In this document: piece after piece, positions 3-35,110 of the stretch
How the letters are laid out: the number at the start of each line of letters is the position of its first letter
How positions within the stretch are numbered: the stretch's first letter is position 1
DNA from: Nitrospinaceae bacterium
GTDB taxonomy: Bacteria > Nitrospinota > Nitrospinia > Nitrospinales > Nitrospinaceae
Reading direction: 5' to 3'
Length of the DNA stretch: 64,000 bases
NCBI GenBank assembly: GCA_965223665.1
Contig: OZ245011.1
Span: 3,040,001-3,104,000, forward strand
Notes under the pieces: generated by a model
What the model was told of the DNA's origin: nothing
Database searches by the model: none
What the model saw: only the letters and a program-made list of their open reading frames with translations
Program-made: the position numbers and the translations under genes

Positions 3-3000
3 GGTGGAACGGATGGCGAAGCGGTAGCGGCCATGAAAGAGTTTACTGTACTCAGTAAAAGCGGCAAGAAAATTGTTTATGACGAGGCGGAACTGGAAAT
101 TGAAAAGACTTCTTTGGAAAACGATACCAACATTTCCATCACGCCATTGAAGCAAGACGATTTGCCGAAGTTGGATCCCGGCATGGTGAACGTGACTAAA
201 GGACCGCGCAAAGGATATCGCTTTTTGCCGCACGGACAGCGTTTCAAAAACAAAATCAAAGTTAAACTGCCTTATGATCTGGCAAAAATCCCGGCTGGCA
301 AAACCGCAGCGGACATTCGAACTTACTTTTTTGATGATGAAGCGGGTCAGTGGAAAAAACTGGAAAGAGTTCAAGTCGACGCCAACAGTCAAAAAGTGAT
401 CAGTAACACTAACCACTTTACGGACATGATCAACGCGGTGGTGACGGTCCCAGATTCGCCTCAAACTGCTTCGTTTAATCCGACGCAGTTGAAGGACATC
501 AAAGCAGCCGATCCCGGAGCGAAGATCAATCTCATTGAAGCGCCGCAGGCCAATAACATGGGCGATGCGCGAGTGAGTTACCCAATTGAAATTCCACCGG
601 GACGTAACGGCATGCATCCGCAGTTAGCGGTGCAATATAACTCCTCCGGCGGTAACGGTTGGATGGGTGTTGGTTGGGATCTTCCAATGCAAACGGTTTC
701 CATCGATACGCGATGGGGTGTTCCGCGTTACAGTTCCACCGAAGAAACCGAAACGTATTTGTTGAACGGAGAACAGCTCACTCCTGTGGCGCATCGTGAT
801 ACGCTGCAGCCTCGCACGGCGGACAAAATTTTTCATACACGTATCGAAGGACAATTCCGAAAAATCATTCGCCATGGTGACCTGCCCGACAATTATTGGT
901 GGGAAGTGATTGATAAAAACGGAACGCGGTTTTTCTATGGCGGTGGTCCGGATACCAATGGCGGCTCCGGTGGACCGACGACCAACTCCACTTTAGTGGA
1001 CGCCAGTGGCAACATCGGGAAATGGTCTCTTAGAGAAGTTCGCGATACCAACGGCAACTTCACGAAGTACACCTGCGTGCGTGAATCCGACAGTGGGTTG
1101 GGCGATGGCACCGGTGGCGTGCAGGGCTCGCAGCTGTATTTACAGACTATCACTTACAGTGGCCATGGAGCTACGGAAGGATTGTATAAAGTCGAGTTTA
1201 CCCGTGAAAGCGAACTCACCAATCCGGTACGTCGACCGGATGCGATGATCGATGCACGGCTCGGATTTAAAATGGTGACGGCCGATCTGTTAAGAATCAT
1301 TGAAGTGTCCTTCAACAATCAACCAGTGCGCAGTTATCGGTTCGATTACATCGAAGGCGCGTTCCGCAAAACGTTGTTGGAAAAAGTTTCGCAGTTTGAC
1401 GAAAACGCCAACCCGTTCGATACTGCGGCCATTCCCTTTAATTTTCATAACTTCGAGTACTTTGACGAAGCGCGGGAAGCCAACGATATCTACCGCGGGT
1501 TTGCAAGACCTTCCTATGGACAAGTGGAATTTTGGAATACCGGGAACGATAACGTAAAAGCCGACGGATTACTTGGTGATTTAGATGCGAGCGCTATCAG
1601 CGGAAATGAAGGTTCCGGTTTTGGTGGACACCTGTATATTGGAATCGGTACGGATCCCACAAAATACAATACTGTGGGCGGTAAGGTTGGTTTTAACTCA
1701 AGTGAAACTGAAGGGCTTCTGGCATTAATCGATATAAATGGCGATTCTCTTCCGGATAAAGTTTTCCGCGAGGGAAACACGGTATATTACCGCGCCAATC
1801 AATCCGGTCCCTTTGGGGGAACGGTGTTCGGAGATAAAAAAGTTGTCGCCAATTTATCGGACATTTTAGTTGAGCGCAATAATATGTTCTCATTTGGTGT
1901 GGAGTCGTACTGGGTTGGGTTCCTCGGATTTAATCTTAGCAACACCTTTGTAGAATCCCCCATTTATTTTACCGATGTTAATGGGGATAGTCTGCCAGAC
2001 TTAGTGAGAAATGGTGGAGTTTTGTTTAACCAGTTTATGGGTGTGGGTGATCCGGTATTCACTCCGAATAGTTCCGATACGGTTTATCCCATCGGTCCGG
2101 GTGTGGTTAATACCAATAATTTGTTGGAAAGTTTTCAAGCGCTATTTGAACAGCAAATCGATAACTTCCCTCTCATTGATACCTTAAGGAAATGGGTGGC
2201 ACCGTTTGACGGGCAAATTCAAATTACCGGAAATGTAGCGCTCATTGAGGACACCAGTCCGGAGCGCGCCGATTACACTACCGCTGATGGAGTAAGAGTT
2301 GCAATTCAACACAATGCCAGTGAATTGTGGACCGCCACCATTGTAGAAAACGACTACACGGCTAAAACTCCAACCGGGGTCGGTGCCATCAATGTGGTCA
2401 AAGGCGATATCATTTATTTTCGTGTTCAGTCTGAATTCGATGGTGCGTATGATCAGGTCAATTGGGATCCAACCATTCAATACCTGGGAGTGGTCTCCAC
2501 TCTTGATCCCAACAATTTAGATGCCTATGTCTATCAGGCCAGCGCGGACTTTGTGCTGCACGATTCTCGCGGTGGTGAAATGGGAATGCCACTGAACGGT
2601 ATGGTTCAAGTGGAAGGGACGCTGGAAAAAAATGGCGTAACTTCCGATGATATCACTGTTGAGTTGCTAAAGAATGGTTCAGTTATTTTTACACAAACGT
2701 TGAACTGGGATGTGCCCGGTTCCGCTGTGATAAACCAATCGGTTTCGGTCATAAAAAACGAGTTTGATAATACAGGGACCCAAACTCAAGTTGGGGATAC
2801 ATTATCCATTCGTGTTCTGGTGGACTCACCTATAGATTTGACCCAAATCAACTGGTTGTCGACGAATCCCATCCGTGCTTATTACACTTCTTCACCAGAT
2901 ATTCCCAATGTGAATGATCAAAACGGAAATCCACTGGTGAATATAAATTTATTTCCTGACACTGACCTGTATCCTGAAAATGATCTTACCGCACCGTTGG

Positions 3001-6000
3001 TTCCGTGGGTAGCTCCCTTACCTATGACCCAAACCTACACCGTCACACCGGCATTAGCGGCAGGTGGCGGCAGCAGCGTTCAGGATGTGGTGGTGACCGT
3101 TAAACGCAATGGCGACCGAGTGGCGAAGCATTTGTATTCGGATGGACCGTTTACCATCGATGCTACGCAAAACGACGAATTGTTTTTTGAGTTCACCACA
3201 CGTGATCCCGATTTATTCGGGAATCTCACGCAAATGGCGATAACAGTGACCTATGATCAAGGTGGTGTTCCACAAATGGTGCAAGTGCCAACGGCCTTTA
3301 ATTATCCGGAACAGCCAACCATCCTGACGCAACGATATCGAGGGTGGACCGCTTTCGGCTATAACGGTAATCGAGACCGTGCCACTCAACCGATCAATAT
3401 TACCCAAGAAGATCTTACTCTAAGTAATTTGGCCTCTCTGGATATTGATGCCTTGAATCAGGCGCTGCAGGATGCGGTCAATAACCAGAACCCGGATTTA
3501 AGTCTTGGTGACGATTTCAAAATGAACTTAGTTCCTTTCTTTCCTGCTTTTGCGAACCAACGATGGGAAGGTAACGATCCTAACTTATGGGCGGATGGAA
3601 CGACATTAAGTAGCTCCCGTAATGGTCCGGATTATATTTCAGTGCCTACTGCCGATTCTTTTGCGGGCGCTTCAGCGGTGCCTCGGCTCAGTCAGACCAA
3701 TCAAATTGGGTTTGCTTTAGGAGTGGGTTTTGTATCTGGTTCATTGGGAACCTCCGTGTCCCGTTCTATTCTGGATTTTAAAGATCTTAATGGAGATCAG
3801 TTTCCCGATGTCATCGGAAGTGGGCTTACAGTTCAGTTCTCTCCAATGATAGGCGGACTGGAAGGTTCGCGAAATGGAGTGGGTCTCAGTGGAGATAACC
3901 AGGAAACGGAGGGGGAAAGTTTTGTTTTTGGTATTAGTGGTGGTTTTCCCAGTCAGTCAGGTAACAGCACAGCTAATGTGGATTCCAGAGCAGGTGCAGG
4001 AGGAAACAGCGGCAATACAACCTTACAGCTTCCTGCATTGGGTATTAGTATCAGTGGTTCCGTCTCCCAGGGAGAATCGGAAATTCAGTATGACCTACGT
4101 GACATCAACGGCGATGGTCTGCCGGACAAAATTATTTTGGGTGGAACCATCTCGGTTCAATTCAATTTGGGTTATACCTTTTCTGCTCCGGAATCTTGGG
4201 ATGTGGCCAAAATTAATTTTGGTGAAAGTGACGGTACCACTCTGGGCCTAGGCTACAACGATGGAGTTTATGGTTGGGGAGCCGGTGTCAGCGGTAGTGA
4301 GTCGGAGTCCATCTCCTTCGATTCCTTACAGGACATCAATGGCGATGGTCTGTTGGATCGTGTCTCGGTGGATTCAAAAGATGCCAGCGTTATTCACGTT
4401 GGGTTTAATACCGGAAATAGTTTCACAATAAATTATCAGTTGGAAAGTGGTTTGGCCAAAGGAATGGCAAATACCATTTCAGAAACTGAAGGCGGAGGCG
4501 TTTACTTTACCTATCCTTATTTACTCTTTCCATTGCCTCCTATCTTCTTAGTCATCAACCCCGGAGTTGATTTCAGCGCGACGATGGGCCGTGTCGAAAC
4601 CAGTATTATCGACGTAGATGGAGACGGGTATCCGGACCACTTGTTCACGGACCAGGATCATGAAATGCAAGTGGCCCGTAATCTGCACAACCGTACCAAT
4701 ATCCTCAAACATATCAGCCGGCCTCTCGGTGGAACTGTCGATATTGAATACGTTCGTAGCGGTAATACCTATGACCAGCCGCAAAGCCGTTGGGTGATGA
4801 GCCGTGTCAAAGTATTCGACGGTTTCGTCGGAGACGGGGTTGATACCCAGGTGATGACTTACGAATACGAGGACGGATTTTTCCATCGTCAGGAACGTGA
4901 ATTCTATGGTTACCGAACGGTTATCGAAAACGATTGTGATAGCACCAACGATCCGGATGTGACCTGTGACAGCAATAACAGCGGCGGCAACCTCTATAGA
5001 ACCGTAACCCGTAAGTTCATCAACGACCTGTATTACAGCAAGGGCCTGATGGAAGAGGAAGTGATTGCTGATGCTTCCGGCAACCTGTTCATTGAAACGA
5101 TCAATGAATACCTGTTGCGCGATATCAATACCGGCAACGCACTGGTGGTCACTAACGATCCGAACGATGTGAATCAATTGACGGCCACGGTGTTCCCGGA
5201 GTTGTCCCGCGTCGATAAGTTTTTCTACGAAGGCCAGGCAACCGCGCAAAAAACCACGCACATGACGTATCAGTACGATACGCTCGGTAATGTCATCCGT
5301 TTCTTTGATGCCGGCGATACCGGAGCGCAGGATGATGTTGAAGCGATCATCGGTTACTTCAGCGATTTACCGAACTACATCGTCGGTAAGGCAGACAGCA
5401 TTCTGGTTAACGGCAATACGGTCGAGTTCCGTCGACGTGAAGCGGATATCCAACCGGGCACCGGCAACCTGCTGCAGGTGCGCCAATACCTGGCGAACGG
5501 TACACCAGCGGTGACCGATCTCACTTACGATGCGTTCGGGAATATCGCCAGCGTCACCGGTCCGCTCAATCTCAATGGCCAGCGTTATCAAATCGATTAC
5601 CTGTACGACAGCACGGTGAATACCTATGTGACCAGTATCACCGACAGTTTTGGTTACAACTCAACTGCCACATACAACTTGCTGTACGGCCTGGTGGAAA
5701 ATACCACCGATATCAACGCCAATGCGATTGATCGTACTTACGATGCCGTGGGCCGTGTCGATTCCATCACCGGTCCGTTCCAAACCGGCACCGGCAATAC
5801 CACGATTAATTTCGAGTACCATCCGAAGGTGACGGATACTGATCCGTTGTCCTGGGCGTTAACGCAGCATATCGATGTGTTCCGTAACGTCAACGATCCG
5901 ATTGAAACAGTGCTGTTCACCGACGGTCTGAAGCGTGTGCTGCAAACCAAGAAAGATTTGGCGCTGCACGTGGCCGAAGGTTCACCGACTCAGGATGTCA

Positions 6001-8714
6001 TGACCGTATCCGGTCGTGTGATTTTCGATTTCGTCGGCCGTACCATCAACCAGTACTATCCGGTGACCGAGAGCCTCGGTAACCAGGGTGCGTTCAACGT
6101 CAACTTCGATACGGTACAACCGACAGTGATGACGTATGACATCCTGGATCGTAATTTGCAAACCACCATTCCGGACAACACCAGTACGGTTATGGCATAC
6201 GATTTCGGTAACGACCGCAGTGGCACTCCACAGTTCCGTACCACGGTGACCGATGCCAACGGCATTATCAAGCAGACCTTCCGCGATGTGCGTAACTTGA
6301 TCACTTCGGTGAAAGAGTTTAACAATGCAGGCAGTCAGATTCTGTGGACCAGTTACGCTTACGATCCGTTAAAACAGATCACACAGGTGGTGGATGATCT
6401 CAACAACACCACCAACGTGGAGTACGACAACTTTGGTCGGCGTACGGTGATTAATAACCCGGATACCGGCCGCACTGAAACTCAGTACGACCTGGCGTCC
6501 AACGTCACGGCACGCATCACCGCGAACCTGCAGGCAGTTAGCCAGCAGATCAGCTATAACTACGACTTTAATCGCCTGTCGACTATCACCTACCCGCAGT
6601 TCACAGAAAACAATGTGGCGTATACCTACGGTGCACCGGGCGCACCGGATAACCGCGCCAATCGTATCGTGACAGTGAGTGATGAATCGGGCAGTGACGA
6701 ACGGTTCTACGATGTATTGGGCAACGTGGTGAAATCGATTCGGTCGATTGATTCCGATACCCAGGGAACCGGCGGACCGCCGGAGGTGTACACTACCGAG
6801 TTTGTGTACGATACCTGGAACCGTCTGCATGAGTTGACTTACCCGGATACGGAAGTGCTGACCTATCACTACGACTCCGGCGGGTTGGTCCACGATGCTT
6901 CCGGTGTGAAAGGTGCCTTTCCTTACGCTTACTTCAATAAACTGGAGTACGACAAGTTTGAGCAGCGCAAGTTCGTCGAGTACGGCAACGGTGTGAAAAC
7001 CACGTACGCTTACGATCCTTTGGATCGAAGGTTGTTCACGTTGAAGTCGGTGAAACCGGATACCAGCTTCTTCCAGGATCTGCTGTACACCTATGACGAT
7101 GTCGGGAATATTCTTCAACTGAAAAACCTGGCAGCAGTGAACCATCCGAATCAAATTGGTGGCGCAACGACGCAGAACTACCAGTACGACGATCTGTATC
7201 GGTTGACTCATGCCGACGGGGAATGGACTCCGGGTACCGGCAAGAAACAGTTGTACGACCTGGATATGGGTTACAACACGATTCACAATATCCAGTTCAA
7301 AGACCAGATGCATACGGAGCTGAAGTCGTCCGGTCAACCGGTGGTGCAGCAGAAGACGACGTATAATTTTGTGTACGGTTATACCGGACCGCATCCGCAT
7401 GCACCGACGGCGATTGGTGACAGAACGTTCACATACGATGCCAACGGTAACCAGACCGCCTGGACGCATAACAGCAATGGAACCCAGCGGACGATCACCT
7501 GGGACGAAGAAAACCGGATTCAGGGGATCTCTGATAACGGGGATCTGAGTACGTATAAGTACGATGATACGGGTCAACGTGTGATCAAAAGCACGTCTCA
7601 AGGTGAGACGGTGTATGTGAACCGTTGGGTGACGGCACGTAACCGTGATGTGGGCACGAAACATGTGTTCGCGGGACAGACGCGTGTGGTTTCCAAGTTG
7701 GCCAAACAGGAAAGAAACGGTCAGATCATCGAGGAGAAGGATCTGTTCTATTACCATCCGGATCATTTGGGCAGTAACGGTTATGTGACAGATGAAGCAG
7801 GTGCCATTTATCAGCATCACGAGTTCTTCCCGTTCGGGGAAACATGGATTGAAGAAACCGGCAACACTCAACCTTCACCGTACCTCTTCACCGGAAAGGA
7901 ACTGGATGAAGAGACGAAATTGTATTACTATGGAGCCAGGTACTTTGATCCCAGAACTTCTGTATGGCAAAGCCCTGATCCGATTTTGGGAGAATTAATT
8001 GCATTTAAATCAAGGCATGAAAGCCTTCCAAGAAAGCTATCCTTGTATAGTTATGGGTTGCAAAACCCGCTTGTTTTCACTGATCCAGATGGAAGGGATG
8101 CATTAATTGTTGTTTTTACACAATATAAAGTGGAAGTTCCTGGATTAGGAAAGATAGGGGGATTGGGGCATGCTGGTGTTGTTTTGATTGATAATAAATC
8201 TGGTTTTACCAAGTATTATGAATATGGAAGATATGATAGAGCAAATCGTGGGGTTGTGAGAAATATAAAAGTTCCAAATGTACAAATGGATGAAAACGGG
8301 AAACCGACTTCTGCATCCATGAAAAAATTATTAAGGACTTTATCGAAAAAAGCAGGTCACAACAGTAAAATAGAAGGGGCTTATATTAAAAACGATAACT
8401 TTAAGCAAATGTTTGATTATGCGAAAGGTAGAAAAGAGCAAAATAATGATCCTGACAGGGAGCCTTATGACAATACATCAAATAATTGTCTTACTTTCTG
8501 TTTGGATACTTCGAAGGCCGGAGGAGCAGAAGTACCTGATGATTTAGTGGATTGGCCAAATCAAGATATTGGAGACATCCAAGATGATCATCCTTCGGTG
8601 CGATTTGATCCGGAAAATGATGAAATTGGTGGTATGCTATATGATAAACCCTCTGGTATTGGAGAGAATATTGAACACCAATATAATCAATTTAAAAAAT
8701 GGTTAGATGAATAA
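3..8714 (+). CDS. Giant fused SpvB/TcB-like + FG-GAP + YD-repeat + Rhs-core polymorphic toxin with TseH-like C-terminal domain (5'-partial)
   Basis: Frame is open from base 3 (GGTDGEAVAA precedes the ATG at 33), so the gene probably starts left of the window. SpvB-type motif YPIEIPPGRNGMHPQLAVQYNSSGGNGWMGVGW; several DxNGDxLPD repeats; REFYGY (TcB mid domain); YD repeats; Rhs core YYHPDHLGS...PYLFTGKELDEETKLYYYGARYFDP...DPDGR. Confidence 0.93.
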   Translation, partial: GGTDGEAVAAMKEFTVLSKSGKKIVYDEAELEIEKTSLENDTNISITPLKQDDLPKLDPGMVNVTKGPRKGYRFLPHGQRFKNKIKVKLPYDLAKIPAGKTAADIRTYFFDDEAGQWKKLERVQVDANSQKVISNTNHFTDMINAVVTVPDSPQTASFNPTQLKDIKAADPGAKINLIEAPQANNMGDARVSYPIEIPPGRNGMHPQLAVQYNSSGGNGWMGVGWDLPMQTVSIDTRWGVPRYSSTEETETYLLNGEQLTPVAHRDTLQPRTADKIFHTRIEGQFRKIIRHGDLPDNYWWEVIDKNGTRFFYGGGPDTNGGSGGPTTNSTLVDASGNIGKWSLREVRDTNGNFTKYTCVRESDSGLGDGTGGVQGSQLYLQTITYSGHGATEGLYKVEFTRESELTNPVRRPDAMIDARLGFKMVTADLLRIIEVSFNNQPVRSYRFDYIEGAFRKTLLEKVSQFDENANPFDTAAIPFNFHNFEYFDEAREANDIYRGFARPSYGQVEFWNTGNDNVKADGLLGDLDASAISGNEGSGFGGHLYIGIGTDPTKYNTVGGKVGFNSSETEGLLALIDINGDSLPDKVFREGNTVYYRANQSGPFGGTVFGDKKVVANLSDILVERNNMFSFGVESYWVGFLGFNLSNTFVESPIYFTDVNGDSLPDLVRNGGVLFNQFMGVGDPVFTPNSSDTVYPIGPGVVNTNNLLESFQALFEQQIDNFPLIDTLRKWVAPFDGQIQITGNVALIEDTSPERADYTTADGVRVAIQHNASELWTATIVENDYTAKTPTGVGAINVVKGDIIYFRVQSEFDGAYDQVNWDPTIQYLGVVSTLDPNNLDAYVYQASADFVLHDSRGGEMGMPLNGMVQVEGTLEKNGVTSDDITVELLKNGSVIFTQTLNWDVPGSAVINQSVSVIKNEFDNTGTQTQVGDTLSIRVLVDSPIDLTQINWLSTNPIRAYYTSSPDIPNVNDQNGNPLVNINLFPDTDLYPENDLTAPLVPWVAPLPMTQTYTVTPALAAGGGSSVQDVVVTVKRNGDRVAKHLYSDGPFTIDATQNDELFFEFTTRDPDLFGNLTQMAITVTYDQGGVPQMVQVPTAFNYPEQPTILTQRYRGWTAFGYNGNRDRATQPINITQEDLTLSNLASLDIDALNQALQDAVNNQNPDLSLGDDFKMNLVPFFPAFANQRWEGNDPNLWADGTTLSSSRNGPDYISVPTADSFAGASAVPRLSQTNQIGFALGVGFVSGSLGTSVSRSILDFKDLNGDQFPDVIGSGLTVQFSPMIGGLEGSRNGVGLSGDNQETEGESFVFGISGGFPSQSGNSTANVDSRAGAGGNSGNTTLQLPALGISISGSVSQGESEIQYDLRDINGDGLPDKIILGGTISVQFNLGYTFSAPESWDVAKINFGESDGTTLGLGYNDGVYGWGAGVSGSESESISFDSLQDINGDGLLDRVSVDSKDASVIHVGFNTGNSFTINYQLESGLAKGMANTISETEGGGVYFTYPYLLFPLPPIFLVINPGVDFSATMGRVETSIIDVDGDGYPDHLFTDQDHEMQVARNLHNRTNILKHISRPLGGTVDIEYVRSGNTYDQPQSRWVMSRVKVFDGFVGDGVDTQVMTYEYEDGFFHRQEREFYGYRTVIENDCDSTNDPDVTCDSNNSGGNLYRTVTRKFINDLYYSKGLMEEEVIADASGNLFIETINEYLLRDINTGNALVVTNDPNDVNQLTATVFPELSRVDKFFYEGQATAQKTTHMTYQYDTLGNVIRFFDAGDTGAQDDVEAIIGYFSDLPNYIVGKADSILVNGNTVEFRRREADIQPGTGNLLQVRQYLANGTPAVTDLTYDAFGNIASVTGPLNLNGQRYQIDYLYDSTVNTYVTSITDSFGYNSTATYNLLYGLVENTTDINANAIDRTYDAVGRVDSITGPFQTGTGNTTINFEYHPKVTDTDPLSWALTQHIDVFRNVNDPIETVLFTDGLKRVLQTKKDLALHVAEGSPTQDVMTVSGRVIFDFVGRTINQYYPVTESLGNQGAFNVNFDTVQPTVMTYDILDRNLQTTIPDNTSTVMAYDFGNDRSGTPQFRTTVTDANGIIKQTFRDVRNLITSVKEFNNAGSQILWTSYAYDPLKQITQVVDDLNNTTNVEYDNFGRRTVINNPDTGRTETQYDLASNVTARITANLQAVSQQISYNYDFNRLSTITYPQFTENNVAYTYGAPGAPDNRANRIVTVSDESGSDERFYDVLGNVVKSIRSIDSDTQGTGGPPEVYTTEFVYDTWNRLHELTYPDTEVLTYHYDSGGLVHDASGVKGAFPYAYFNKLEYDKFEQRKFVEYGNGVKTTYAYDPLDRRLFTLKSVKPDTSFFQDLLYTYDDVGNILQLKNLAAVNHPNQIGGATTQNYQYDDLYRLTHADGEWTPGTGKKQLYDLDMGYNTIHNIQFKDQMHTELKSSGQPVVQQKTTYNFVYGYTGPHPHAPTAIGDRTFTYDANGNQTAWTHNSNGTQRTITWDEENRIQGISDNGDLSTYKYDDTGQRVIKSTSQGETVYVNRWVTARNRDVGTKHVFAGQTRVVSKLAKQERNGQIIEEKDLFYYHPDHLGSNGYVTDEAGAIYQHHEFFPFGETWIEETGNTQPSPYLFTGKELDEETKLYYYGARYFDPRTSVWQSPDPILGELIAFKSRHESLPRKLSLYSYGLQNPLVFTDPDGRDALIVVFTQYKVEVPGLGKIGGLGHAGVVLIDNKSGFTKYYEYGRYDRANRGVVRNIKVPNVQMDENGKPTSASMKKLLRTLSKKAGHNSKIEGAYIKNDNFKQMFDYAKGRKEQNNDPDREPYDNTSNNCLTFCLDTSKAGGAEVPDDLVDWPNQDIGDIQDDHPSVRFDPENDEIGGMLYDKPSGIGENIEHQYNQFKKWLDE

Positions 8715-8726
8715 GGCAAAAACTTA

Positions 8727-9281
8727 TTGAAGCTAAGTAATTTTGTAAAATATCTTATATTTTTCTTTATTATTGGTTGTGATGATTCCGGTTTTCTTGG
8801 CAGTTGGAATGTGAAAAATGATAATGGTTTTTTCATAGAACACGTAGAAATATCGGACGTTTCAATCGAATGCAAACAGGGAGAATATGGTAATAAAAAG
8901 ACCTACTTTGTTCCTTGTTTCCTAAAAGCAAAAATAATATATAGCCCTAAATATATATTCTTAAACAAAGTAGCCATATTATCAAAGTTAATTCCACTTG
9001 ATAAAATTTCGAAAGTAGAATATCAATCTTTAAATAATGACGAGTTGTTTCGACCCAAAGGGAATTCAGATCCTGATTATTTAGGACAAACTTACAGTGC
9101 TTATATTCAAAGTGTAATAAAACCTTTGTTTACCTTGGATATTTGGGGAAACACTGGCGACAGACAAAAAATTGAAGATATTGAAGTTAAATTTAAACTA
9201 TCCATTAGTGCTACGAAATGTGAAAAATTAATATTTGGAAATCACTCAAAAATCTTTTGTTTTGATTTTGGAGGTAAATAG
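8727..9281 (+). CDS. Putative lipoprotein immunity protein for the TseH-like toxin
   Basis: 12 nt downstream of the toxin stop, AT-rich, TTG start, signal peptide ending in lipobox-like FIIG-C. Confidence 0.7.
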   Translation: MKLSNFVKYLIFFFIIGCDDSGFLGSWNVKNDNGFFIEHVEISDVSIECKQGEYGNKKTYFVPCFLKAKIIYSPKYIFLNKVAILSKLIPLDKISKVEYQSLNNDELFRPKGNSDPDYLGQTYSAYIQSVIKPLFTLDIWGNTGDRQKIEDIEVKFKLSISATKCEKLIFGNHSKIFCFDFGGK

Positions 9282-9480
9282 ATTTTTTATCAGAACTGAT
9301 GAAATTTTATAACCTTAAATGTTAAGTTAAATTAGAATTAATAATTCGATAGCGTTATTCTTATTTCTTCTACGCGGAAAATACCCCTTCCTAAATTGCC
9401 ATCAAATATTAAACGACCACTAACATCGAAAAAGCTAAATTTTTATCTCATCTTAATAAGAATATTAAGATAGTTAACGG

Positions 9481-9736
9481 AGAGAAAGAGTTGTTCTTTT
9501 ATCATCCGGATCATTTGGGCAGTAACGGGTATGTGACGGATGTGGATGGAGCGATTTACCAGCACATTGAGTTCTTCCCGTTCGGGGAAACGTGGATTGA
9601 AGATACCGGCAACACTCAACCCTCACCGTACCTCTTCACCGGAAAGGAACTGGATGAAGAGACCAAGCTCTACTACTACGGCGCCCGCTATTACGATCCA
9701 CGAACAAGCGTGTGGCAGAGTGCGGACCCGATTTTA
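9481..9736 (+). repeat. Direct repeat of the Rhs core-coding DNA (about 7733-7987)
   Basis: Shared stretches such as catccggatcatttgggcagtaacgg and tcaccgtacctcttcaccggaaaggaactggatgaagagac. Confidence 0.92.
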
Positions 9737-10474
9737 AACCGGTATTTAGATGGATTGGGAAGTTTAGGTGGAGTTTATAATTCCAATAATTTAAATCTAT
9801 TTTCCTATGCTCATCAAAATCCATTGATTTTGTTCGATCCTGATGGATTGAGTACTGAGGTAGCTGAATCAGGTAATGGGATGTATAAAGTTACTGGAGG
9901 AAACCTTGCTGATGGAGATAAAGGAATATATGTGGTTAGCAAAAATAAGAAAACTGGAAAATTTGAAAGAACAGGTGAAAAACTAGGAGAATCGCTGACT
10001 ATGTATTCATTCTATAACGCTGACACTCAAGATGAGAAGGGACAACAAGGTTGGAAAGGTACTATTGACATAAATTCAAAAGAGTCTGGTAATTTGGTTT
10101 CGAACTTTAAGAAAAAAGTTAAAAGTGAAGCTGGGATCGGACTTTTTGAATATATGCTTAATGCCACCGATGGAAAAGAGTATGATTTTAAACGAGGTGG
10201 TGATCCAAACAGTAAGGACAGAAATTTTCACCATCGGGGATCTATATGGGAAACGAAAACTGACGGGACAAAAGTGTTTGGTACTGCAAGGGATGTCGGG
10301 AATTTTGCCGCAGGATATCTTGCAGCTTCAAAGGGCATTGGATATTCTTTTGCTAGAGGAGCTTTTGATCTCTTTGAGCAAAAGTTTATGCCTTGGAAAC
10401 CAGGAGAGGGCCCCCAGAGTACAAGGGCTCAGGAGTTAGGACATAAAGCTGGTACTTTAGATGCGGGAAAATGA
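9491..10474 (+). CDS. Orphan Rhs core + alternative C-terminal toxin (Ntox44-like motifs)
   Basis: Begins with FFYHPDHLGS...GARYYDP...DPDGL, homologous to the main gene core; the unrelated C-terminus has YDFK and DVGNFAAGY motifs. TTG start preceded by GGAG. Confidence 0.85.
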   Translation: MFFYHPDHLGSNGYVTDVDGAIYQHIEFFPFGETWIEDTGNTQPSPYLFTGKELDEETKLYYYGARYYDPRTSVWQSADPILNRYLDGLGSLGGVYNSNNLNLFSYAHQNPLILFDPDGLSTEVAESGNGMYKVTGGNLADGDKGIYVVSKNKKTGKFERTGEKLGESLTMYSFYNADTQDEKGQQGWKGTIDINSKESGNLVSNFKKKVKSEAGIGLFEYMLNATDGKEYDFKRGGDPNSKDRNFHHRGSIWETKTDGTKVFGTARDVGNFAAGYLAASKGIGYSFARGAFDLFEQKFMPWKPGEGPQSTRAQELGHKAGTLDAGK

Positions 10475-10485
10475 AAGTGAGCTAA

Positions 10486-11004
10486 ATGAAAACTAAAAAG
10501 TGGCTTTGGTTTCTATCAGTTTTTATATTGTTTCTATACTATCAGATTGACTATAAAAGATATTTTATAGAGAGCTCTGATGGCAGTAAGGTATTTACTG
10601 TTTGGGTCCGATATTTTGAATATTGTTATATAATTCCTGGGAAATATTATTTGCCCTATCTTCCTAAAGAAAATTATATAAAAACTGATGGCTGGAAAAA
10701 TTATTTAGATGTTGTTTTTAAGCCGCAAAATAAGGATAAATATGCTATAGCTATTTATCAGGAATTTAAAAAGTTTAACTTTGATAAGGGCATAAGGTTA
10801 TTTAAATCACAAAAATCACTGGAAGCCTATTATGGAATGGATGATGCGAGGATTTCAAGGGAAGATAAACTAAAAAGCTTGGAATATGTCTACGTTGATA
10901 TGGATGAAATATATGGTATTAGAGTAGTTCGCCATGAAGAGTTAATACAAACAAAAAAGAATTATGAAAAATTTTGGAAAGATATTAAGAAAGATAATAA
11001 ATGA
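10486..11004 (+). CDS. Putative immunity protein for the orphan toxin, N-terminal membrane anchor
   Basis: 11 nt after the orphan toxin stop, AT-rich, basic N-terminus followed by hydrophobic WLWFLSVFILFLYY. Confidence 0.7.
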   Translation: MKTKKWLWFLSVFILFLYYQIDYKRYFIESSDGSKVFTVWVRYFEYCYIIPGKYYLPYLPKENYIKTDGWKNYLDVVFKPQNKDKYAIAIYQEFKKFNFDKGIRLFKSQKSLEAYYGMDDARISREDKLKSLEYVYVDMDEIYGIRVVRHEELIQTKKNYEKFWKDIKKDNK

Positions 11005-11109
11005 TAAGCTTAAAATTAAATTTGTTATGATCCAAGGATTATAGTAGAAAAAATACTATAAAGATTGTATTGGGTTTCTATCGAAGCCAGTAAAAAGATC
11101 CTACCTCCC

Positions 11110-11472
11110 AGTTTGTGTACGATACCTGGAACCGTTTGCATGAGCTGACGTACCCGGATACGGAAGTGCTGACCTATCACTACGACTCCGGTGGATTGGT
11201 GCACGATGCTTCCGGTGTGAAAGGTGCCTTCCCTTACGCTTACTTCAGTAAACTCGAGTACGACCACTCACCGTGGGGGTGATATGATTCTTGAAAAGTT
11301 TCTTGGGATTCGGTAGGCTATTGAATTATCGTAAATTTATTTTGCCTCTAACCGCTAGTTTGGTTTGGGCAGCACAAGTTCGTCGAGTACGGCAACGGAG
11401 TAAAAACAACCTATGCTTACGATCCGTTAGACCGGCGCCTGTTCACCTTGAAGTCGGTGAAACCGGATACCA
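11110..11472 (+). pseudogene. Interrupted rhs YD-region remnant homologous to about 6799-7064
   Basis: 11110-11264 encodes FVYDTWNRLHELTYPDTEVLTYHYDSGGLVHDASGVKGAFPYAYFSKLEYD; 11363-11472 encodes FGQHKFVEYGNGVKTTYAYDPLDRRLFTLKSVKPDT. About 98 bp of unrelated DNA lies between; no start codon. Confidence 0.9.
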
Positions 11473-21572: not shown

Positions 21573-22898
21573 ATGAATTCTTACTTTTTAAAAACTATTG
21601 TTTCCTTCGTTATTTTACTAAGTCTGCACAATATAGCGTTGGGAAAATCAGATAAAAATAAAAACTCTATTAATGAGCTTACGGGAGAATTAACACTTCG
21701 GCAAGTAGTTACTCAGGTTCTGATGCGGAATCCAGAGTTAAAAGCCTACTCTCTCGAAATCCGCGCAAGGGAAGCTCGTATTCTGCAGGCAGGGTTACGG
21801 CCCAATCCACAAATTTTGTTGGATACACAGGATATTTTGGGTTCCGGAGGATTTAGTGGCGCTGATCAATCTCAATCGACTATTACACTTAGCCAAATTA
21901 TAGAGTTAGGTGGAAAACGCACTCGAAGAGAAAAAGAAGCCATTCGCAAACGGGACTTAGCTCAATGGGATTACGAAACCAACCGAATGGATGTTTTAAC
22001 ACGAGTTGCTAAGGATTTTATTGAAGCGGTAGCGGCTCAAGAAAAATTATTGCTCACTAAAGAATTGGTTAATCTATCAAAAAATTTATTAAGAGCCGTA
22101 AAGGAAAAAGTAACTGCTGGGAAGGTATCTCCAATCCAAAAAATAAAAGCAGAAGTTGCTCTTTCTTCCACTCGAATTCAATATCAACAAGCTTTCAACC
22201 AAGTGCAAAAAACCTATCGCAAATTGGCAACTTCGTGGGGAAGTACTCAACCCCAATTTAAAAAAGTAGTTGGAGATCTATTTAAGATTTCTTCGATTCC
22301 TAAATTCGAGACACTAAAAAAACAATTATTGCGTAACCCTCAATTAGCGCGATGGGCGGCAGAGGTAACTCAACGCCAGGCAAAATTGGATTTAGAACTT
22401 GCAAATGCTAAACCGAACTTGAGAGTGGGCGCGGGGGGCCGTTGGTTCCAGGAAACAAAGGATAATACTTTTATTTTTGAATTTTCATTTCCGTTACAGT
22501 TCTTTGATCGCAACCAAGGGGCGATTGCAGAAGCAAGACATCGATTAGCCAAAATAGAGCAAGAGAAAAAAGCCATCACACTTCAATTGCACCGCAATCT
22601 TTCTGAAAAATATTTACGTTTAATCAATGCACATCAAAGTGTCATTGCATTAAAGAAAAAAGTCCTTCCGGGAGCGCAAACGGCTTTTGAAGCCACACAA
22701 GAAGGATACCAATATGGAAAGTTCGGTTATTTGGAAATATTGGACAGTCAACGAACTTTATTTGATGCACGTGCGCAATACATCAACGCTCTATTGGAAT
22801 ATCATCAAGCTCTTGCAGATGTAGAGCGATTAATTGGCAAACCCTTAAGCCAAATTTTTTATTTAAAGGAATCAAATTCCGGAGGACCCAATAAATGA
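21573..22898 (+). CDS. czcC: TolC-family outer membrane protein, CzcC-like
   Basis: Signal peptide; QAGLRPNP, IELGGKR, PLQFFDRNQG, GYQYGKFGYLEILDSQRTL. Confidence 0.88.
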   Translation: MNSYFLKTIVSFVILLSLHNIALGKSDKNKNSINELTGELTLRQVVTQVLMRNPELKAYSLEIRAREARILQAGLRPNPQILLDTQDILGSGGFSGADQSQSTITLSQIIELGGKRTRREKEAIRKRDLAQWDYETNRMDVLTRVAKDFIEAVAAQEKLLLTKELVNLSKNLLRAVKEKVTAGKVSPIQKIKAEVALSSTRIQYQQAFNQVQKTYRKLATSWGSTQPQFKKVVGDLFKISSIPKFETLKKQLLRNPQLARWAAEVTQRQAKLDLELANAKPNLRVGAGGRWFQETKDNTFIFEFSFPLQFFDRNQGAIAEARHRLAKIEQEKKAITLQLHRNLSEKYLRLINAHQSVIALKKKVLPGAQTAFEATQEGYQYGKFGYLEILDSQRTLFDARAQYINALLEYHQALADVERLIGKPLSQIFYLKESNSGGPNK

Positions 22899-24667: not shown

Positions 24668-24676
24668 ACTAATATT

Positions 24677-27600: not shown

Positions 27601-27853
27601 TAGAGAAGAAGGTTTTTCTTTGGATAAAGCCATTCATGAAGGATGTTTAACGCGATTGCGACCTATTCTTATGACGGCTCTTGTGGCTTCACTGGGATTT
27701 CTGCCAATGGCTATCGCAACGGGTACGGGGGCTGAAGTACAAAGGCCCTTAGCAACCGTTGTCATTGGAGGGATTCTTTCTTCTACCGCCTTAACACTTA
27801 TTGTACTTCCCGTTTTATATCGAATTTTCCACAGAGAAAGTCAAACGAATTAG
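24677..27853 (+). CDS. czcA: Heavy-metal RND efflux pump, CusA/CzcA family
   Basis: LPIDALPDITNIQVQINT, SLGAIDFGIIVD, GIEGKMFQPMA, RLRPILMTALVASLGFLPMA. Confidence 0.95.
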   Translation: MLEKLLNFSIKQRVFILLATLGIAGLGVFNFQQLPIDALPDITNIQVQINTEAPGYSPLEVEQRITFLIETVLSGMPYLNEIRSISRYGLSQVTVVFKDGTDIYFARQLINSRLQEVKSKLPLGIDPVMGPIATGLGEIFMWALQWERQPPSEDTFKSSVELRTVQDWIIRPQLRTIPGVADINSIGGYVKEYHVSPDPEKLVAFNVTFREILNSLIKNNANVGAGYIEHQGEQYLIRTPGQVQSIHDIEQIIIGSHRGVPIYIKDVAKVNVAKELRTGAATQNGQEVVLGTVFMLKGENSRAVSLRVAEKMKAINRTLPDGLEAKTVYDRTKLVNATLQTVRNNLLEGALLVIVILFLLLGNIRAALITALVIPLSMLFAISGMVAHKVSGNLLSLGAIDFGIIVDSTVIIVENCLRRMAIAQAEHNRLLTREERFSVVRGAAAEVARPSIFGIIIIMIVYLPIMTLSGIEGKMFQPMAFTVLAALTGAMILSITFIPAMVAQFATGPISEKNNPLIKWSKNVYKPVLDSALRNRPAILTFAGVLLVLSILMGTQLGKEFIPTLDEQDLAIHALRIPGTSLTQAVQMQDEVERKIKEFAEVDYVFAKIGTAEIATDPMPPSVADVFVIMQPRSNWPNPKLSRTGLIKKIESSLRTLPGNNYEFTQPIQMRFNELIAGVRSDVAVKVHGDDLDVLISQAEKISQQLRIIPGASDVRVEQVSGLPILTIQLKRDEMARLGLNISDVQDIISIAIGGKSAGQIFEGDRRFDLMVRLPGNQREDIEFLKRIPLPYAENLKTGVGTKDIIKPRFQTGKNLPTFITLGAVAEFKVIKGPNQISRENGKRRVVVSSNVRGRDLGSFVEEAETLIQNKISLPPGYWISWGGQFEHLISAGKRLWIVVPVALLLIFLLLFAAFGSTKHAFLVFTGVPLALTGGVFSLWIRDIPLSISASIGFIALSGVAVLNGVVMISFINKLREEGFSLDKAIHEGCLTRLRPILMTALVASLGFLPMAIATGTGAEVQRPLATVVIGGILSSTALTLIVLPVLYRIFHRESQTN

Positions 27854-34347: not shown

Positions 34348-34356
34348 TTTAAAAAA

Positions 34357-35109: not shown

Positions 35110-35110
35110 A

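What the first reader, a model, noticed from the sequence alone, without database searches (positions are those of the whole stretch)
3..11472. Fused TcB-TcC-like Rhs cocoon whose exchangeable payloads both appear to target the bacterial envelope
Seen: one protein joins a putative ZU5-like N-terminal domain (ELEIEKTSL...ISIT...YRFLPHGQRFKNKIKVKLPY), a SpvB/TcB-type region, FG-GAP repeats, a YD shell and an Rhs core. Downstream are toxin/immunity cassettes, and both immunity candidates are exported (lipoprotein; N-terminal anchor). No PAAR, VgrG or TcA gene lies in the window. Known: TcB-TcC shells deliver anti-eukaryotic cargo via TcA, whereas antibacterial Rhs proteins generally use T6SS PAAR/VgrG. 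Inference: this is a TcA-independent, possibly self-delivering antibacterial polymorphic toxin system in a probable nitrite oxidiser, with an unknown export route.
Basis: partly seen in the sequence, partly recalled or inferred. Interest (0 to 1): 0.78.

Follow-up and report, generated by a model that had tools for sequence, protein, structure and literature searches.

The report
Sec-exported TcB-TcC-like Rhs toxin locus
This is a giant secreted bacterial "cocoon" toxin with swappable warheads and matching antidote genes, belonging to a widespread class that was catalogued by computer in 2012 but whose way of reaching its victims is still unknown.

Summary
The full ORF is 3665 aa and starts 2284 nt upstream. 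Its order is: Sec-type signal peptide, degenerate purple-acid-phosphatase-like domain, DNRLRE/CBM96 domain, ZU5 domain with a conserved H-F-T motif, SpvB, FG-GAP propeller, TcdB_midN, RHS shell, Rhs core, and a TseH-like cysteine-hydrolase tip.

Downstream lie a lipoprotein ORF, an orphan Rhs-core+toxin cassette with a membrane-anchored partner ORF, and Rhs-shell remnants.

This is a member of the "TcdB/TcaC-type" polymorphic toxins described in silico by Zhang et al. 2012. At least 943 large relatives exist, nearly all with signal peptide and ZU5.

I found no TcA, no T6SS sheath and no PAAR on the protein, so the TcA-independent antibacterial reading holds. The first export step is Sec, not unknown.

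Envelope targeting is not a property of the scaffold. The same-genus ortholog carries an LHH nuclease with a cytoplasmic SUKH immunity protein at the same breakpoint.

New here:
- the pseudo-phosphatase N-terminal fusion, found on 1 of 92 carriers of that module;
- an uncharacterised toxin/immunity family (CT2/Imm2) with no solved-fold match.

Verdict: new member of a known kind, of moderate interest.

The parts
3..8714 (+). Window part (residues 763-3665) of the 3665-aa Rhs toxin gene. The true start is G000:C1:3037717, 2284 nt upstream of the window. The upstream part encodes the signal peptide (1-27), Pur_ac_phosph_N (37-126), a degenerate Metallophos domain (152-336) and a DNRLRE domain (570-733).
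30..443 (+). ZU5 domain (residues 772-909). The H900-F901-T902 motif lies at nt 414-422, between the last two beta-strands, and is the predicted autoproteolytic site.
   Evidence: AF2 pLDDT 93.3. Foldseek PDB top hits are ankyrin ZU5, UNC5b, GAIN and NLRP1. H-F-[TS] is present in 116 of 117 aligned homologs, is invariant in A1, and is present in 47 of 55 rows of A3.
558..1196 (+). SpvB / TcB N-terminal domain (residues 948-1160)
   Evidence: PF03534 E 1e-22; YenB 31-243 E 4e-9
1200..4568 (+). FG-GAP (DxNGDxxPD) propeller repeats, interrupted by a conserved stretch of roughly 550-600 aa with no Pfam family (residues ~1161-2284). This region is about twice as long as the corresponding part of TcB.
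   Evidence: Weak FG-GAP/FG-GAP_3 hits. Invariant columns throughout A1. No Pfam family at E<=0.1 over ~1440-2000. Fold not modelled.
4569..4949 (+). TcdB_toxin_midN domain (residues 2285-2411)
   Evidence: PF12256 E 4e-20
4950..7829 (+). RHS/YD-repeat shell (residues ~2412-3371)
   Evidence: PF05593, TIGR01643. The A1 profile matches TcdB2-TccC3 with E 3e-66.
7830..8093 (+). Rhs-associated core carrying PxxxxDxxG (P3451...D3456-P-D-G3459), the predicted aspartyl self-cleavage site. Homology with the congener's gene ends at about nt 7990.
   Evidence: TIGR03696 E 1.4e-16; invariant P3451, D3456, G3459
8094..8714 (+). CT1: TseH-like (NlpC/P60-type) cysteine hydrolase tip, 206 aa plus stop. GC is 0.35 against 0.49 for the shell.
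   Evidence: PF25218 E 9e-25. PDB 6v98_A E 1.8e-25, with the GHAGV and NC(x)TF motifs aligned. GC.
8727..9281 (+). Imm1 candidate: a 184-aa predicted lipoprotein (…FFFIIGC|DD) that starts 13 nt after the toxin stop. It has no detectable relatives.
   Evidence: no family; only itself found; atlas gave nothing
9491..10474 (+). Orphan cassette. Rhs core (9491-9850) is followed by CT2 (9851-10471), with …FDPDGL between them. nt 9482-9735 are 82% identical to 7734-7987 of the main gene. CT2 is a 207-aa tip of an uncharacterised family distantly like Ntox44.
   Evidence: TIGR03696 E 2.4e-18; 478 representative relatives, always C-terminal; AF2 pLDDT 91.8; no PDB fold match; weak Ntox44 in 3 of 36 relatives
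10486..11004 (+). Imm2 candidate: a 172-aa ORF with an N-terminal signal-anchor (MKTKKWLWFLSVFILFLYYQI). It belongs to a family that recurs directly downstream of CT2-type tips.
   Evidence: Homolog in 16 of 72 downstream ORFs by phmmer, and in 27 of 72 after two profile rounds. Alignment A5.
11107..11472 (+). Two remnants of Rhs shell (11107-11264 and 11363-11472) that mark the distal end of the cassette array. They are conserved at 90% in the congener (L212:19473-19837).

Best explanation
This is a Sec-exported, TcA-independent polymorphic antibacterial toxin of the ZU5-SpvB-propeller-RHS ('TcdB/TcaC-type') class.

Shown:
- The 3665-aa protein has a Sec-type signal peptide. It is followed by a variable N-terminal 'display' module, here a catalytically degenerate purple-acid-phosphatase-like domain plus a DNRLRE/CBM96 domain, both borrowed from a lineage-specific family of giant surface proteins.
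- Then comes a ZU5 domain with the conserved H-F-T motif, then a fused TcB-like and TcC-like shell, and an Rhs core with the PxxxxDxxG self-cleavage motif.
- The tip is a TseH-like cysteine hydrolase.
- The tip and its downstream gene are replaced wholesale in the congener at the Rhs-core boundary.

Inferred:
1. After Sec export the ZU5 domain cuts between F901 and T902. This leaves the cocoon held non-covalently by its first beta-strand to the N-terminal module on or near the producer's surface.
2. The tip is cleaved after DPDG and sits unfolded inside the shell.
3. On contact with a competitor, CT1 reaches the periplasm and degrades peptidoglycan.
4. The lipoprotein Imm1 protects the producer and its kin in the periplasm.
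5. The orphan CT2/Imm2 pair is a silent spare that can be recombined onto the shell through the 254-nt, 82%-identical core repeat. CT2 also acts outside the cytoplasm, because its conserved partner family is membrane-anchored or lipoprotein.

Unknown: how the ~400-kDa protein crosses the producer's outer membrane, and how the tip crosses the target's. The genome is diderm and has two secretins.
For: Architecture and start:
- A Shine-Dalgarno AGGTGA lies 6 nt before the first ATG.
- The N-terminus MNKRLMYPFLFLCLLIQTLGSPFESFA|Q is conserved in the congener.

Family:
- 943 proteins of at least 2015 aa score E<=0.001 among 2375 scored.
- All 120 listed carry the ZU5 segment.
- 96 of 119 have a hydrophobic N-terminal stretch; many of the other 23 are visibly truncated calls.
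- 203 of 620 pattern hits in species genomes encode relatives, across Actinomycetota, Bacteroidota, Myxococcota, Nitrospirota, Spirochaetota and others.

ZU5: fold; motif.

Homology to Tc BC: TcdB2-TccC3 E 3e-27 with the single sequence and 3e-66 with the profile; YenB N-terminus.

No rival delivery machine:
- VRP1 and TcA_TcB_BD gave no hit.
- 0 of the 20 largest other ORFs is TcA-like.
- VipB gave no hit, with E. coli as positive control.
- There is no PAAR domain on the protein.
- 0 of 22 large neighbouring ORFs in related loci is TcA-like.

CT1:
- PF25218 87.9 bits against a cut-off of 27.
- 6v98_A E 1.8e-25.
- TseH kills only from the periplasm and TsiH protects (PMC4453574, passages).

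CT2/Imm2.

Payload exchange: 82.5% nt identity over 10.8 kb ends at window ~7990. The congener then has LHH (E 1.8e-27) plus SUKH (E 5.9e-24) and different orphans.

Prior description of the class: PMC3482391 (passages).

Diderm host: BamA 675 bits, two secretins.
Against: - No step of secretion, ZU5 cleavage, encapsulation, toxicity or immunity was measured. All of them are inferred from homology.
- Imm1 has no detectable relative anywhere. Its immunity role therefore rests only on position and a lipobox.
- By my crude hydropathy measure, Imm1 (1.77) and Imm2 (1.93) fall just under the 2.0 threshold that 66 of 72 CT2-linked downstream ORFs pass.
- The ZU5 H-F-T motif is missing in 8 of 55 aligned genome loci and in 6 more that I left out of the alignment. 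Most are Bacteroidota. Cleavage is therefore not universal in the family.
- The TcA Pfam searches had no positive control.
- A Sec signal peptide alone does not take a protein across an outer membrane.
- The Ntox44 link for CT2 is weak. CT2 itself gave no hit; 3 of 36 relatives hit, best E 0.0011. I recall that Pfam calls Ntox44 a predicted RNase, which would conflict with a periplasmic target.
Confidence: 0.8

Rival explanations
1. It is primarily a surface adhesion or kin-recognition protein, like the recently described bacterial teneurin-like proteins. On this view the N-terminal CBM96 and pseudo-phosphatase modules and the shell mediate cell-cell contact, and the toxin tip is a secondary policing device rather than a weapon against other species.
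For: - The N-terminal module is shared with 8 of the 20 largest ORFs of the genome. These are HYR/CBM96 adhesin-like giants.
- Its phosphatase ligands are lost, so a binding role is likelier than catalysis.
Against: - Rapid payload and immunity replacement between congeners and retained orphan cassettes are the signature of antagonism.
- TseH-type hydrolases lyse cells.
- The two roles are not mutually exclusive.
Confidence: 0.1
2. It is the BC part of a Tc-type (ABC) toxin aimed at eukaryotes, working with a TcA-like translocator that is too divergent to recognise or is encoded elsewhere.
For: - It shows sequence homology to TcdB2-TccC3, YenB and YenC2.
- The Pfam TcA models had no positive control in the tool's control genomes.
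Against: - No TcA domains occur in the 20 largest other ORFs or in 22 large neighbours of related loci.
- It has a signal peptide and a ZU5 domain, which I recall Tc BC subunits do not have.
- The tips are antibacterial types with adjacent immunity genes.
- The family is common in free-living soil and sediment bacteria.
Confidence: 0.04
3. It is cargo of a contractile injection system, either a T6SS or the eCIS encoded at C1:1.38-1.40 Mb.
For: The genome has one PAAR gene and an eCIS_core protein. TseH itself is a T6SS effector in Vibrio.
Against: - No VipB sheath gene was found, with a positive control.
- The protein has no PAAR domain and does have a Sec signal peptide.
- The eCIS lies 1.66 Mb away.
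- The family occurs in monoderm Actinomycetota, which lack T6SS.
Confidence: 0.03

Closest known systems
'TcdB/TcaC-type' polymorphic toxins of Zhang, de Souza, Anantharaman, Iyer & Aravind 2012 (PMC3482391; passages seen)
   Same: - Signal peptide, N-terminal ZU5 autopeptidase, SpvB, integrin-like beta-propeller, RHS repeats.
- Polymorphic C-terminal toxin, with Tox-NLPC/P60 and Tox-LD-peptidase explicitly listed for this route, and immunity genes.
[quoted passage not shown]
   Different: - That description is purely computational.
- It predates the shell structures and treats RHS as a filament.
- It does not mention a purple-acid-phosphatase-like or DNRLRE N-terminal module.
- The CT2/Imm2 pair is not among its named families, except for a possible distant tie to Ntox44, for which it lists no immunity protein.
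Tc (ABC) toxin BC subcomplex: TcdB2-TccC3 (4o9x, 6h6e), YenB-YenC2 (4igl)
   Same: SpvB-type N-terminus, FG-GAP propeller, TcdB_midN, RHS shell, aspartyl self-cleavage motif PxxxxDxxG, and a hypervariable C-terminal cargo. Natural tcB-tcC fusion genes are noted in PMC7861908 (passages).
   Different: - No TcA was found.
- A Sec signal peptide, a ZU5 domain and a 760-aa N-terminal extension are present.
- The region between SpvB and midN is about twice as long.
- The tips are antibacterial and have immunity genes.
Bacterial teneurin-like proteins (TLPs), Raoelijaona et al. 2026 (PMC13018210; abstract, section 6 and passages seen)
   Same: - Sec-dependent YD-shell polymorphic toxins with variable N-terminal adhesion domains, an encapsulated polymorphic tip and immunity genes.
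- No obvious delivery machinery; the authors state that delivery and release remain to be elucidated.
   Different: - TLPs close the shell with an FN-plug and an NHL propeller and carry a TIP domain. This protein uses a TcB-type SpvB/FG-GAP/midN half and a ZU5 domain.
- The paper's text mentions neither SpvB, TcB nor ZU5 (0 occurrences each).
T6SS Rhs effectors (e.g. RhsA, Tse5, Tse15)
   Same: RHS shell, Rhs core self-cleavage, polymorphic tip, orphan cassettes. Weak PDB sequence hits to 8cp6 and 8uy4.
   Different: They have PAAR, prePAAR or VgrG-binding N-termini and no signal peptide. Here there is no PAAR on the protein and no sheath gene in the genome.
TseH/TsiH of Vibrio cholerae (PMC4453574; PDB 6v98)
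   Same: CT1 aligns over residues 12-146 with 6v98 31-166 (E 1.8e-25), including the GHAGV and NC(x)TF motifs. TseH is toxic only in the periplasm, and the downstream gene protects.
   Different: TseH is a free-standing 223-aa T6SS cargo; here the domain is the tip of an Rhs shell. Imm1 has no detectable relatives, and I had no TsiH sequence to compare.

Membership tests
TcdB/TcaC-type polymorphic toxin (Zhang et al. 2012) | N-terminal signal peptide | tested here: met
   The N-terminus is MNKR + a 16-residue hydrophobic core + SFA|Q. Hydropathy is 2.55. It is conserved in the congener. No SignalP-type predictor was available.
TcdB/TcaC-type polymorphic toxin (Zhang et al. 2012) | N-terminal ZU5-superfamily autopeptidase domain | tested here: met
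   The fold matches ankyrin, UNC5b, GAIN and NLRP1 ZU5 domains. H-F-T is conserved in 116 of 117 homologs. Cleavage itself is not testable here.
TcdB/TcaC-type polymorphic toxin (Zhang et al. 2012) | SpvB domain followed by an integrin-like (FG-GAP) beta-propeller | tested here: met
   SpvB E 1e-22. FG-GAP_3 scores 26.7 bits, just under its 26.9 cut-off. There are six or more DxNGDxxPD repeats whose columns are invariant in A1.
TcdB/TcaC-type polymorphic toxin (Zhang et al. 2012) | RHS repeats, and a variable C-terminal toxin with an adjacent immunity gene and spare cassettes | tested here: met
   Tip and immunity gene are replaced in the congener.
Tc (ABC) toxin complex, BC subunits | TcB-like SpvB/midN half plus TcC-like RHS half with a PxxxxDxxG aspartyl autoprotease | tested here: met
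Tc (ABC) toxin complex, BC subunits | A TcA translocator encoded in the genome | tested here: not met
   VRP1 and TcA_TcB_BD gave no hit, but the models rang in none of the 14 control genomes. 0 of the 20 largest other ORFs and 0 of 22 neighbouring large ORFs in related loci are TcA-like. The genome is 98.6% complete.
T6SS Rhs effector | PAAR, prePAAR or VgrG-linked N-terminus, and a T6SS in the genome | tested here: not met
   No PAAR family on P0002 at E<=0.1. VipB is absent, with E. coli as positive control. One orphan PAAR lies 1.66 Mb away beside an eCIS.
TseH family (PF25218), NlpC/P60-like cysteine hydrolase | Profile score over cut-off, and the His and Cys motifs retained | tested here: met
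   87.9 bits against a cut-off of 27. GHAGV and NNC(L)TF align with GHAGV and HNC(M)TF of 6v98. That these residues are the catalytic pair is recalled, not tested.
TseH family (PF25218), NlpC/P60-like cysteine hydrolase | Periplasmic toxicity neutralised by the downstream gene product | not testable with these tools
   This needs expression in E. coli with and without an export signal and Imm1.
Ntox44 (PF15607), for CT2 | Profile match over the gathering score | tested here: not met
   CT2 gave 0 families at E<=0.1. 3 of 36 relatives matched, best E 0.0011. The congener's orphan scored E 0.00098, 19.9 bits against a cut-off of 24.
Ntox44 (PF15607), for CT2 | Motifs DxK, GNxxxG and DxxxD (as given by Zhang 2012) | tested here: inconclusive
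   D112-F-K114 and G150-N151-x-x-A154-G155 are invariant in A2. A DxxxD motif was not identified. CT2 also has an N-terminal beta subdomain, although Ntox44 is described as all-alpha.
Bacterial teneurin-like proteins | FN-plug + NHL propeller + YD shell superfold | tested here: not met
   No NHL or FN-plug family on P0002 at E<=0.1. The shell-closing half is of the TcB type. Only weak sequence hits to 9pt5 and 9ifo, restricted to the YD shell.
Purple acid phosphatase (active enzyme), for residues 37-336 | Conserved metal-ligand motifs GD, GDxxY, GNH[DE], H and GHxH | tested here: not met
   The domain hits Pfam and PDB PAPs. But motif I D is N (86 of 88 homologs have D). Motif III N-H is D-A (88 of 88 have N and 88 of 88 have H). 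Motif V first H is R (88 of 88 have H).

The most novel reading that the evidence does not exclude
The ZU5-SpvB-propeller-RHS proteins may be a self-contained delivery device that needs neither TcA nor a contractile machine. This would apply to a family of at least about a thousand members in both monoderm and diderm bacteria.

On this reading, ZU5 autoproteolysis leaves the loaded cocoon spring-tethered to a variable N-terminal adhesin. The family-specific ~550-600-aa insertion in the FG-GAP propeller replaces TcA as the gate and receptor-binding element. Each tip brings its own entry segment: a beta subdomain on CT2, and a hydrophobic helix before the congener's LHH nuclease.

In parallel, CT2/Imm2 would define a new-fold toxin family that acts in the periplasm or on the membrane, rather than a nuclease.
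Probability: 0.25. Interest if true: 0.7.

Novelty: new member of a known kind. Interest (0 to 1): 0.4.

Why it matters
Sec-dependent shell toxins without a known injector are abundant in environmental bacteria, yet none of the ZU5-SpvB type has been studied at the bench. This class and the teneurin-like proteins published in 2026 are two such groups. How a folded ~300-400-kDa cocoon leaves a diderm cell and hands its cargo to another cell is an open question.

This locus offers a clean natural experiment. Two congeners share the same scaffold but have a cell-wall hydrolase and a nuclease, respectively, swapped in at the same breakpoint. It also offers a testable autoproteolytic tether (H-F-T) and a large uncharacterised toxin/immunity family (CT2/Imm2) with no solved-fold relative.

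It does not overturn anything. It fits the 2012 computational scheme.

Tried and rejected
- Complex prediction of CT2 with Imm2 (residues 24-172), both as alignments, gave no verdict (score 0.00). It is no evidence either way.
- Sequencing-run search: no RNA holder was listed. Four DNA rows came from one study, so I laid no reads.
- CT2 fold search: Foldseek against the PDB had 0 matches at E<=0.001. VIA-align against 48,161 chains gave a best Z of 3.5. HMMER against the PDB found nothing below E 0.069. The atlas gave only unnamed clusters and a 17% Ntox44 lead.
- Imm1: no Pfam or NCBIfam family. No relative in the 5.8-billion-cluster search at near lengths. The atlas best score was 0.88, in unnamed clusters.
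- CT1, Imm1, CT2 and Imm2 have no tblastn relatives in the 76 genome loci of the scaffold family, and no second copy in the own genome. The TseH family is found in 1 of 120 genomes of the phylum, the own genome only; that search's 14 control genomes rang in none.
- High GC as a sign of horizontal transfer is rejected. The gene has GC 0.478 against a genome GC of 0.382, but other giant genes here have 0.43-0.50.
- The 15-kb integrase island at tRNA-Thr does not carry the Rhs gene. Its 48-bp direct repeat ends 1.4 kb before the gene. The congener has the gene 872 nt after an uninterrupted tRNA-Thr.
- Two literature searches listed no experimental study of ZU5-SpvB-Rhs toxins. This covers only the held library and those search terms.
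- A first alignment of the phosphatase N-termini was unusable. I replaced it with pairwise BLAST column counts.

Full report
**1. What is at the coordinates**

ORF 3..8714 (+) runs off the 5' edge of the window. The window is G000:C1:3040001-3104000. Reading upstream, the frame stays open to an ATG at C1:3037717. An AGGTGA lies 6 nt before that ATG. The full product is 3665 aa (P0002).

Pfam and NCBIfam give the following, with residues in brackets:
- Pur_ac_phosph_N (37-126)
- Metallophos (152-336)
- DNRLRE (570-733, E 6e-25)
- SpvB (948-1160, E 1e-22)
- weak FG-GAP
- TcdB_toxin_midN (2285-2411, E 4e-20)
- RHS repeats
- Rhs_assc_core (3372-3459, E 1.4e-16)
- TseH-like (3480-3599, E 9e-25)

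The first 27 residues (MNKR, a 16-residue hydrophobic core, SFA|Q) look like a Sec signal peptide. No dedicated predictor was available, so this call is by inspection and hydropathy.

Downstream are:
- a 184-aa lipobox ORF (8727..9281);
- an orphan Rhs core plus tip (9491..10474; TIGR03696 E 2.4e-18);
- a 172-aa ORF with a signal-anchor-like N-terminus (10486..11004);
- two Rhs-shell remnants (11107-11264 and 11363-11472).

The orphan's 5' end (9482-9735) is 82% identical to 7734-7987 of the main gene. That is the kind of repeat through which Rhs tips are displaced.

**2. The ZU5 call**

An alignment of the window segment with 54 segments translated from related genome loci (A3) gave an AF2 model with pLDDT 93.3. 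Its best PDB matches by Foldseek are:
- ankyrin ZU5 domains (3kbu_C, E 8e-6, TM 0.65);
- UNC5b (3g5b);
- the autoproteolytic GAIN domains (4dlo_B, 8oek);
- the NLRP1 FIIND (7crw_A).

H900-F901-T902 sits between the last two strands of the model. H-F-[T/S] is present in 116 of 117 aligned protein homologs. In that alignment I dropped the window's own database copy and three segments shorter than 150 aa. The motif is invariant in the 24-sequence alignment A1.

Among species-genome loci, 47 of 55 rows of A3 keep the motif. I left eight further usable segments out of A3. Six lack it, one has it, and one is out of frame. The loci without it are mostly Bacteroidota.

That HF|S-type motifs are the cleavage sites of PIDD, Nup98 and FIIND domains is recalled, not tested here. 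Zhang et al. 2012 make the same inference for bacterial ZU5 domains.

**3. The family**

With residues 760-1700 as query, 943 proteins of 2015-6414 aa score E<=0.001 among 2375 scored. All 120 listed carry the ZU5 segment. They fall into two length classes:
- about 2900 aa, with ZU5 starting 30-110 residues after the N-terminus;
- about 3450 aa, with a ~550-600-aa extension before ZU5.

By hydropathy, 96 of 119 have a signal-peptide-like N-terminus. Many of the other 23 are visibly truncated calls. Their precomputed Pfam lists show many different tips: restriction-endonuclease-fold, HNH-type (AHH, WHH, SHH), colicin DNase, deaminase, RNase, lysozyme, YkuD, Tlde1-like and TseH.

A scan of species genomes found relatives in 203 of 620 pattern hits. 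These span Actinomycetota, Bacteroidota, Myxococcota, Nitrospirota, Spirochaetota, Gammaproteobacteria and others.

This is the class that Zhang et al. 2012 call the TcdB/TcaC export type. [quoted passage not shown] They list Tox-NLPC/P60 and Tox-LD-peptidase among its tips (PMC3482391, passages).

Song et al. 2021 note natural tcB-tcC fusion genes and set them aside (PMC7861908, passages).

Bacterial teneurin-like proteins are a parallel Sec-dependent YD-shell class. Their delivery is stated to be unknown (PMC13018210, abstract, section 6 and passages).

Two searches of the held library listed no bench study of the ZU5-SpvB-Rhs type.

**4. Relation to Tc toxins and to injectors**

By sequence the protein matches TcdB2-TccC3 (E 3e-27; 3e-66 with the A1 profile), TccC2, YenC2 and the YenB/TcdB1/SpvB N-termini. 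The PxxxxDxxG self-cleavage motif is invariant (P3451, D3456, G3459).

Evidence against a TcA partner:
- No TcA family (VRP1, TcA_TcB_BD) hits the genome. These models rang in no control genome either, so I added two further checks.
- None of the 20 largest other ORFs (at least 1670 aa) has a TcA domain.
- None of 22 large ORFs beside related loci has one.

Evidence against a contractile injector:
- The T6SS sheath family VipB is absent, with E. coli as positive control.
- The single PAAR gene lies at C1:1382397 beside an eCIS.

The host is diderm (BamA 675 bits) and has two secretins. So the TcA-independent, non-T6SS reading stands. The first export step (Sec) is visible. The outer-membrane step is not.

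**5. The N-terminal module**

Residues 28-760 are homologous to the N-termini of 92 giant proteins. Of these, only the query itself carries SpvB or RHS domains, that is 1 of 92, and 0 of the other 91. In the own genome, 8 of the 20 largest ORFs share the PAP_N and/or Metallophos leader, usually with CBM96/DNRLRE and HYR domains.

In 88 homologs the metallophosphatase ligands are kept: motif I D in 86 of 88, and motif III N, motif III H and the first H of motif V each in 88 of 88. The Rhs protein instead has N, D-A and R at these positions. The congener shares the first two changes but keeps GHSH.

The module is therefore most likely a non-catalytic display or binding part, sitting in the slot that other family members fill with discoidin, lectin, FN3 or dockerin domains.

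The full DNRLRE-ZU5-SpvB junction is found in G000 and in the one same-genus genome G001 (95% identity). It was not found in the 39 other relatives searched.

**6. The payloads**

CT1 aligns with the solved TseH structure (6v98_A, E 1.8e-25), with the GHAGV and NC(x)TF motifs in register. TseH kills E. coli and V. cholerae only when sent to the periplasm, and TsiH protects (PMC4453574, passages).

Imm1 follows 13 nt after the stop and has a lipobox, but it has no detectable relative. Its role is inferred from position alone.

CT2 has 478 representative relatives at E<=0.001, always at a C-terminus. Of 30 relatives scanned:
- 1 is a SpvB-type Rhs protein;
- 17 are DUF6443-RHS proteins;
- 1 has RHS repeats only;
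- 11 have no family.

Its AF2 model is confident (pLDDT 91.8): a beta subdomain followed by a helical domain. It has no solved-fold match. It shares the DxK and GNxxxG motifs with Ntox44 but does not reach that profile's threshold.

In 79 metagenome loci encoding CT2 relatives, 72 have an ORF of at least 70 aa within 300 nt downstream. Of those 72:
- Imm2 homologs make up 16 by phmmer, and 27 after two profile rounds.
- 66 (59 of 64 distinct sequences) have a strongly hydrophobic N-terminal segment, and some have lipoboxes. The same measure passes 409 of 1366 (30%) size-matched ORFs of the own genome.
- By that measure Imm2 itself scores 1.93 and Imm1 1.77, both just under the threshold of 2.0.

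The conserved pairing and the exported nature of the partner family argue that CT2 acts outside the cytoplasm.

**7. Exchangeability, and why 'envelope targeting' is not a property of the system**

The congener's gene (L212:2572-13656, 3694 aa) is 82.5% identical at the nucleotide level over 10.8 kb. Homology stops at window ~7990, about 35 codons before DPDG.

Its tip is an LHH HNH/EndoVII nuclease (E 1.8e-27) preceded by a hydrophobic helix. The tip is followed by:
- a SUKH immunity protein with no export signal (E 5.9e-24);
- a TPR protein;
- another orphan (weak Ntox44, E 0.00098) with a membrane-anchored partner;
- the same distal Rhs-shell remnant (90% identical).

The scaffold thus carries cytoplasm-acting as well as envelope-acting tips.

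**8. Context**

- A 15-kb island with a tyrosine integrase is inserted in tRNA-Thr(CGU). It is bounded by a 48-bp exact repeat and ends 1.4 kb before the gene.
- In the congener the intact tRNA lies 872 nt before the gene.
- The gene's GC (0.478 against 0.382 for the genome) is matched by other giant genes (0.43-0.50). The tips and immunity genes drop to about 0.35.
- 'Nitrite oxidiser' was not established. There is only a weak NarG-like hit.

**9. Verdict**

The finding is a real and intact polymorphic toxin locus of a class already described in silico. Its interest lies in three things: the class is unstudied at the bench, the congener pair shows a clean payload swap, and the CT2/Imm2 family is uncharacterised.

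Noticed in passing
outside the window: G000:C1:3021167-3036289 (L002:1-14289): A 15-kb integrative island sits in tRNA-Thr(CGU). It is bounded by a 48-bp exact direct repeat (3021196-3021243 and 3036242-3036289), with a tyrosine integrase (Phage_integrase + Arm-DNA-bind_3) at its right end. It is absent from the same site in the congener.
   Followed up: partly
G000:C1, e.g. 3795820-3806532, 2558356-2566881, 2756036-2761993, 1101723-1107533, 4144875-4156843, 2552681-2557924: This is a lineage-specific family of giant (1750-3570 aa) secreted proteins. They share an N-terminal purple-acid-phosphatase-like leader followed by CBM96/DNRLRE, HYR and disaggregatase-type repeats. The DNRLRE-ZU5-SpvB query (its DNRLRE part in nearly all cases) matched 42 places in this genome and 44 in the congener.
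   Followed up: partly
window 29480-32503 (-): A 1007-aa ORF with three DNRLRE domains (E 3e-74). It is another member of the expanded CBM96/DNRLRE repertoire.
   Followed up: no
window 32890-39184 (-): A Pup-proteasome operon in a diderm genome: PafA-like ligase, 20S alpha and beta subunits, Dop-like depupylase and a proteasome AAA ATPase.
   Followed up: no
G000:C1:1660925-1668409 (L111:4925-12409, -): A second, shorter SpvB-Rhs locus, split into a 359-aa SpvB ORF and a 2114-aa FG-GAP/TcdB_midN/RHS ORF. Two CBM96 domains are inserted among the RHS repeats. No ZU5 was seen. The genome has five further Rhs_assc_core hits in all.
   Followed up: partly
G000:C1:1382397-1400206 and 1570490-1575520: An extracellular contractile injection system region, with a PAAR gene and an 1880-aa eCIS_core protein. 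Separately, there is a 1677-aa ORF with an anthrax-LF-type (Anthrax_toxA) domain.
   Followed up: no
related loci L040, L047, L053, L064, L066, L076, L081, L085 (Bacteroidota); L043: In Bacteroidota relatives, the gene is directly preceded by co-directional genes for 520-1100-aa proteins with T9SS C-terminal sorting domains. Ten of the 22 ORFs scanned have such a domain, and two of those are also subtilases. One gammaproteobacterial locus has a secretin gene 2.6 kb upstream. Several of these Bacteroidota proteins have lost the ZU5 H-F-T motif.
   Followed up: partly
L212:12889-13653 (congener G001): The congener's LHH nuclease tip begins with a hydrophobic, helix-like stretch right after the DPDG cleavage motif. 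This is possibly a membrane-entry element for a cytoplasm-acting cargo.
   Followed up: no
window 21573-27853 (+): A CzcCBA/Ihp-type heavy-metal RND efflux operon: TolC-like outer-membrane protein, adaptor, and a CusA/CzcA permease at 1553 bits.
   Followed up: no
G000:C1:3002610-3006089 (+): An 1160-aa ORF with weak NarG-like similarity (58.6 bits, far below cut-off), about 35 kb upstream of the toxin gene.
   Followed up: no
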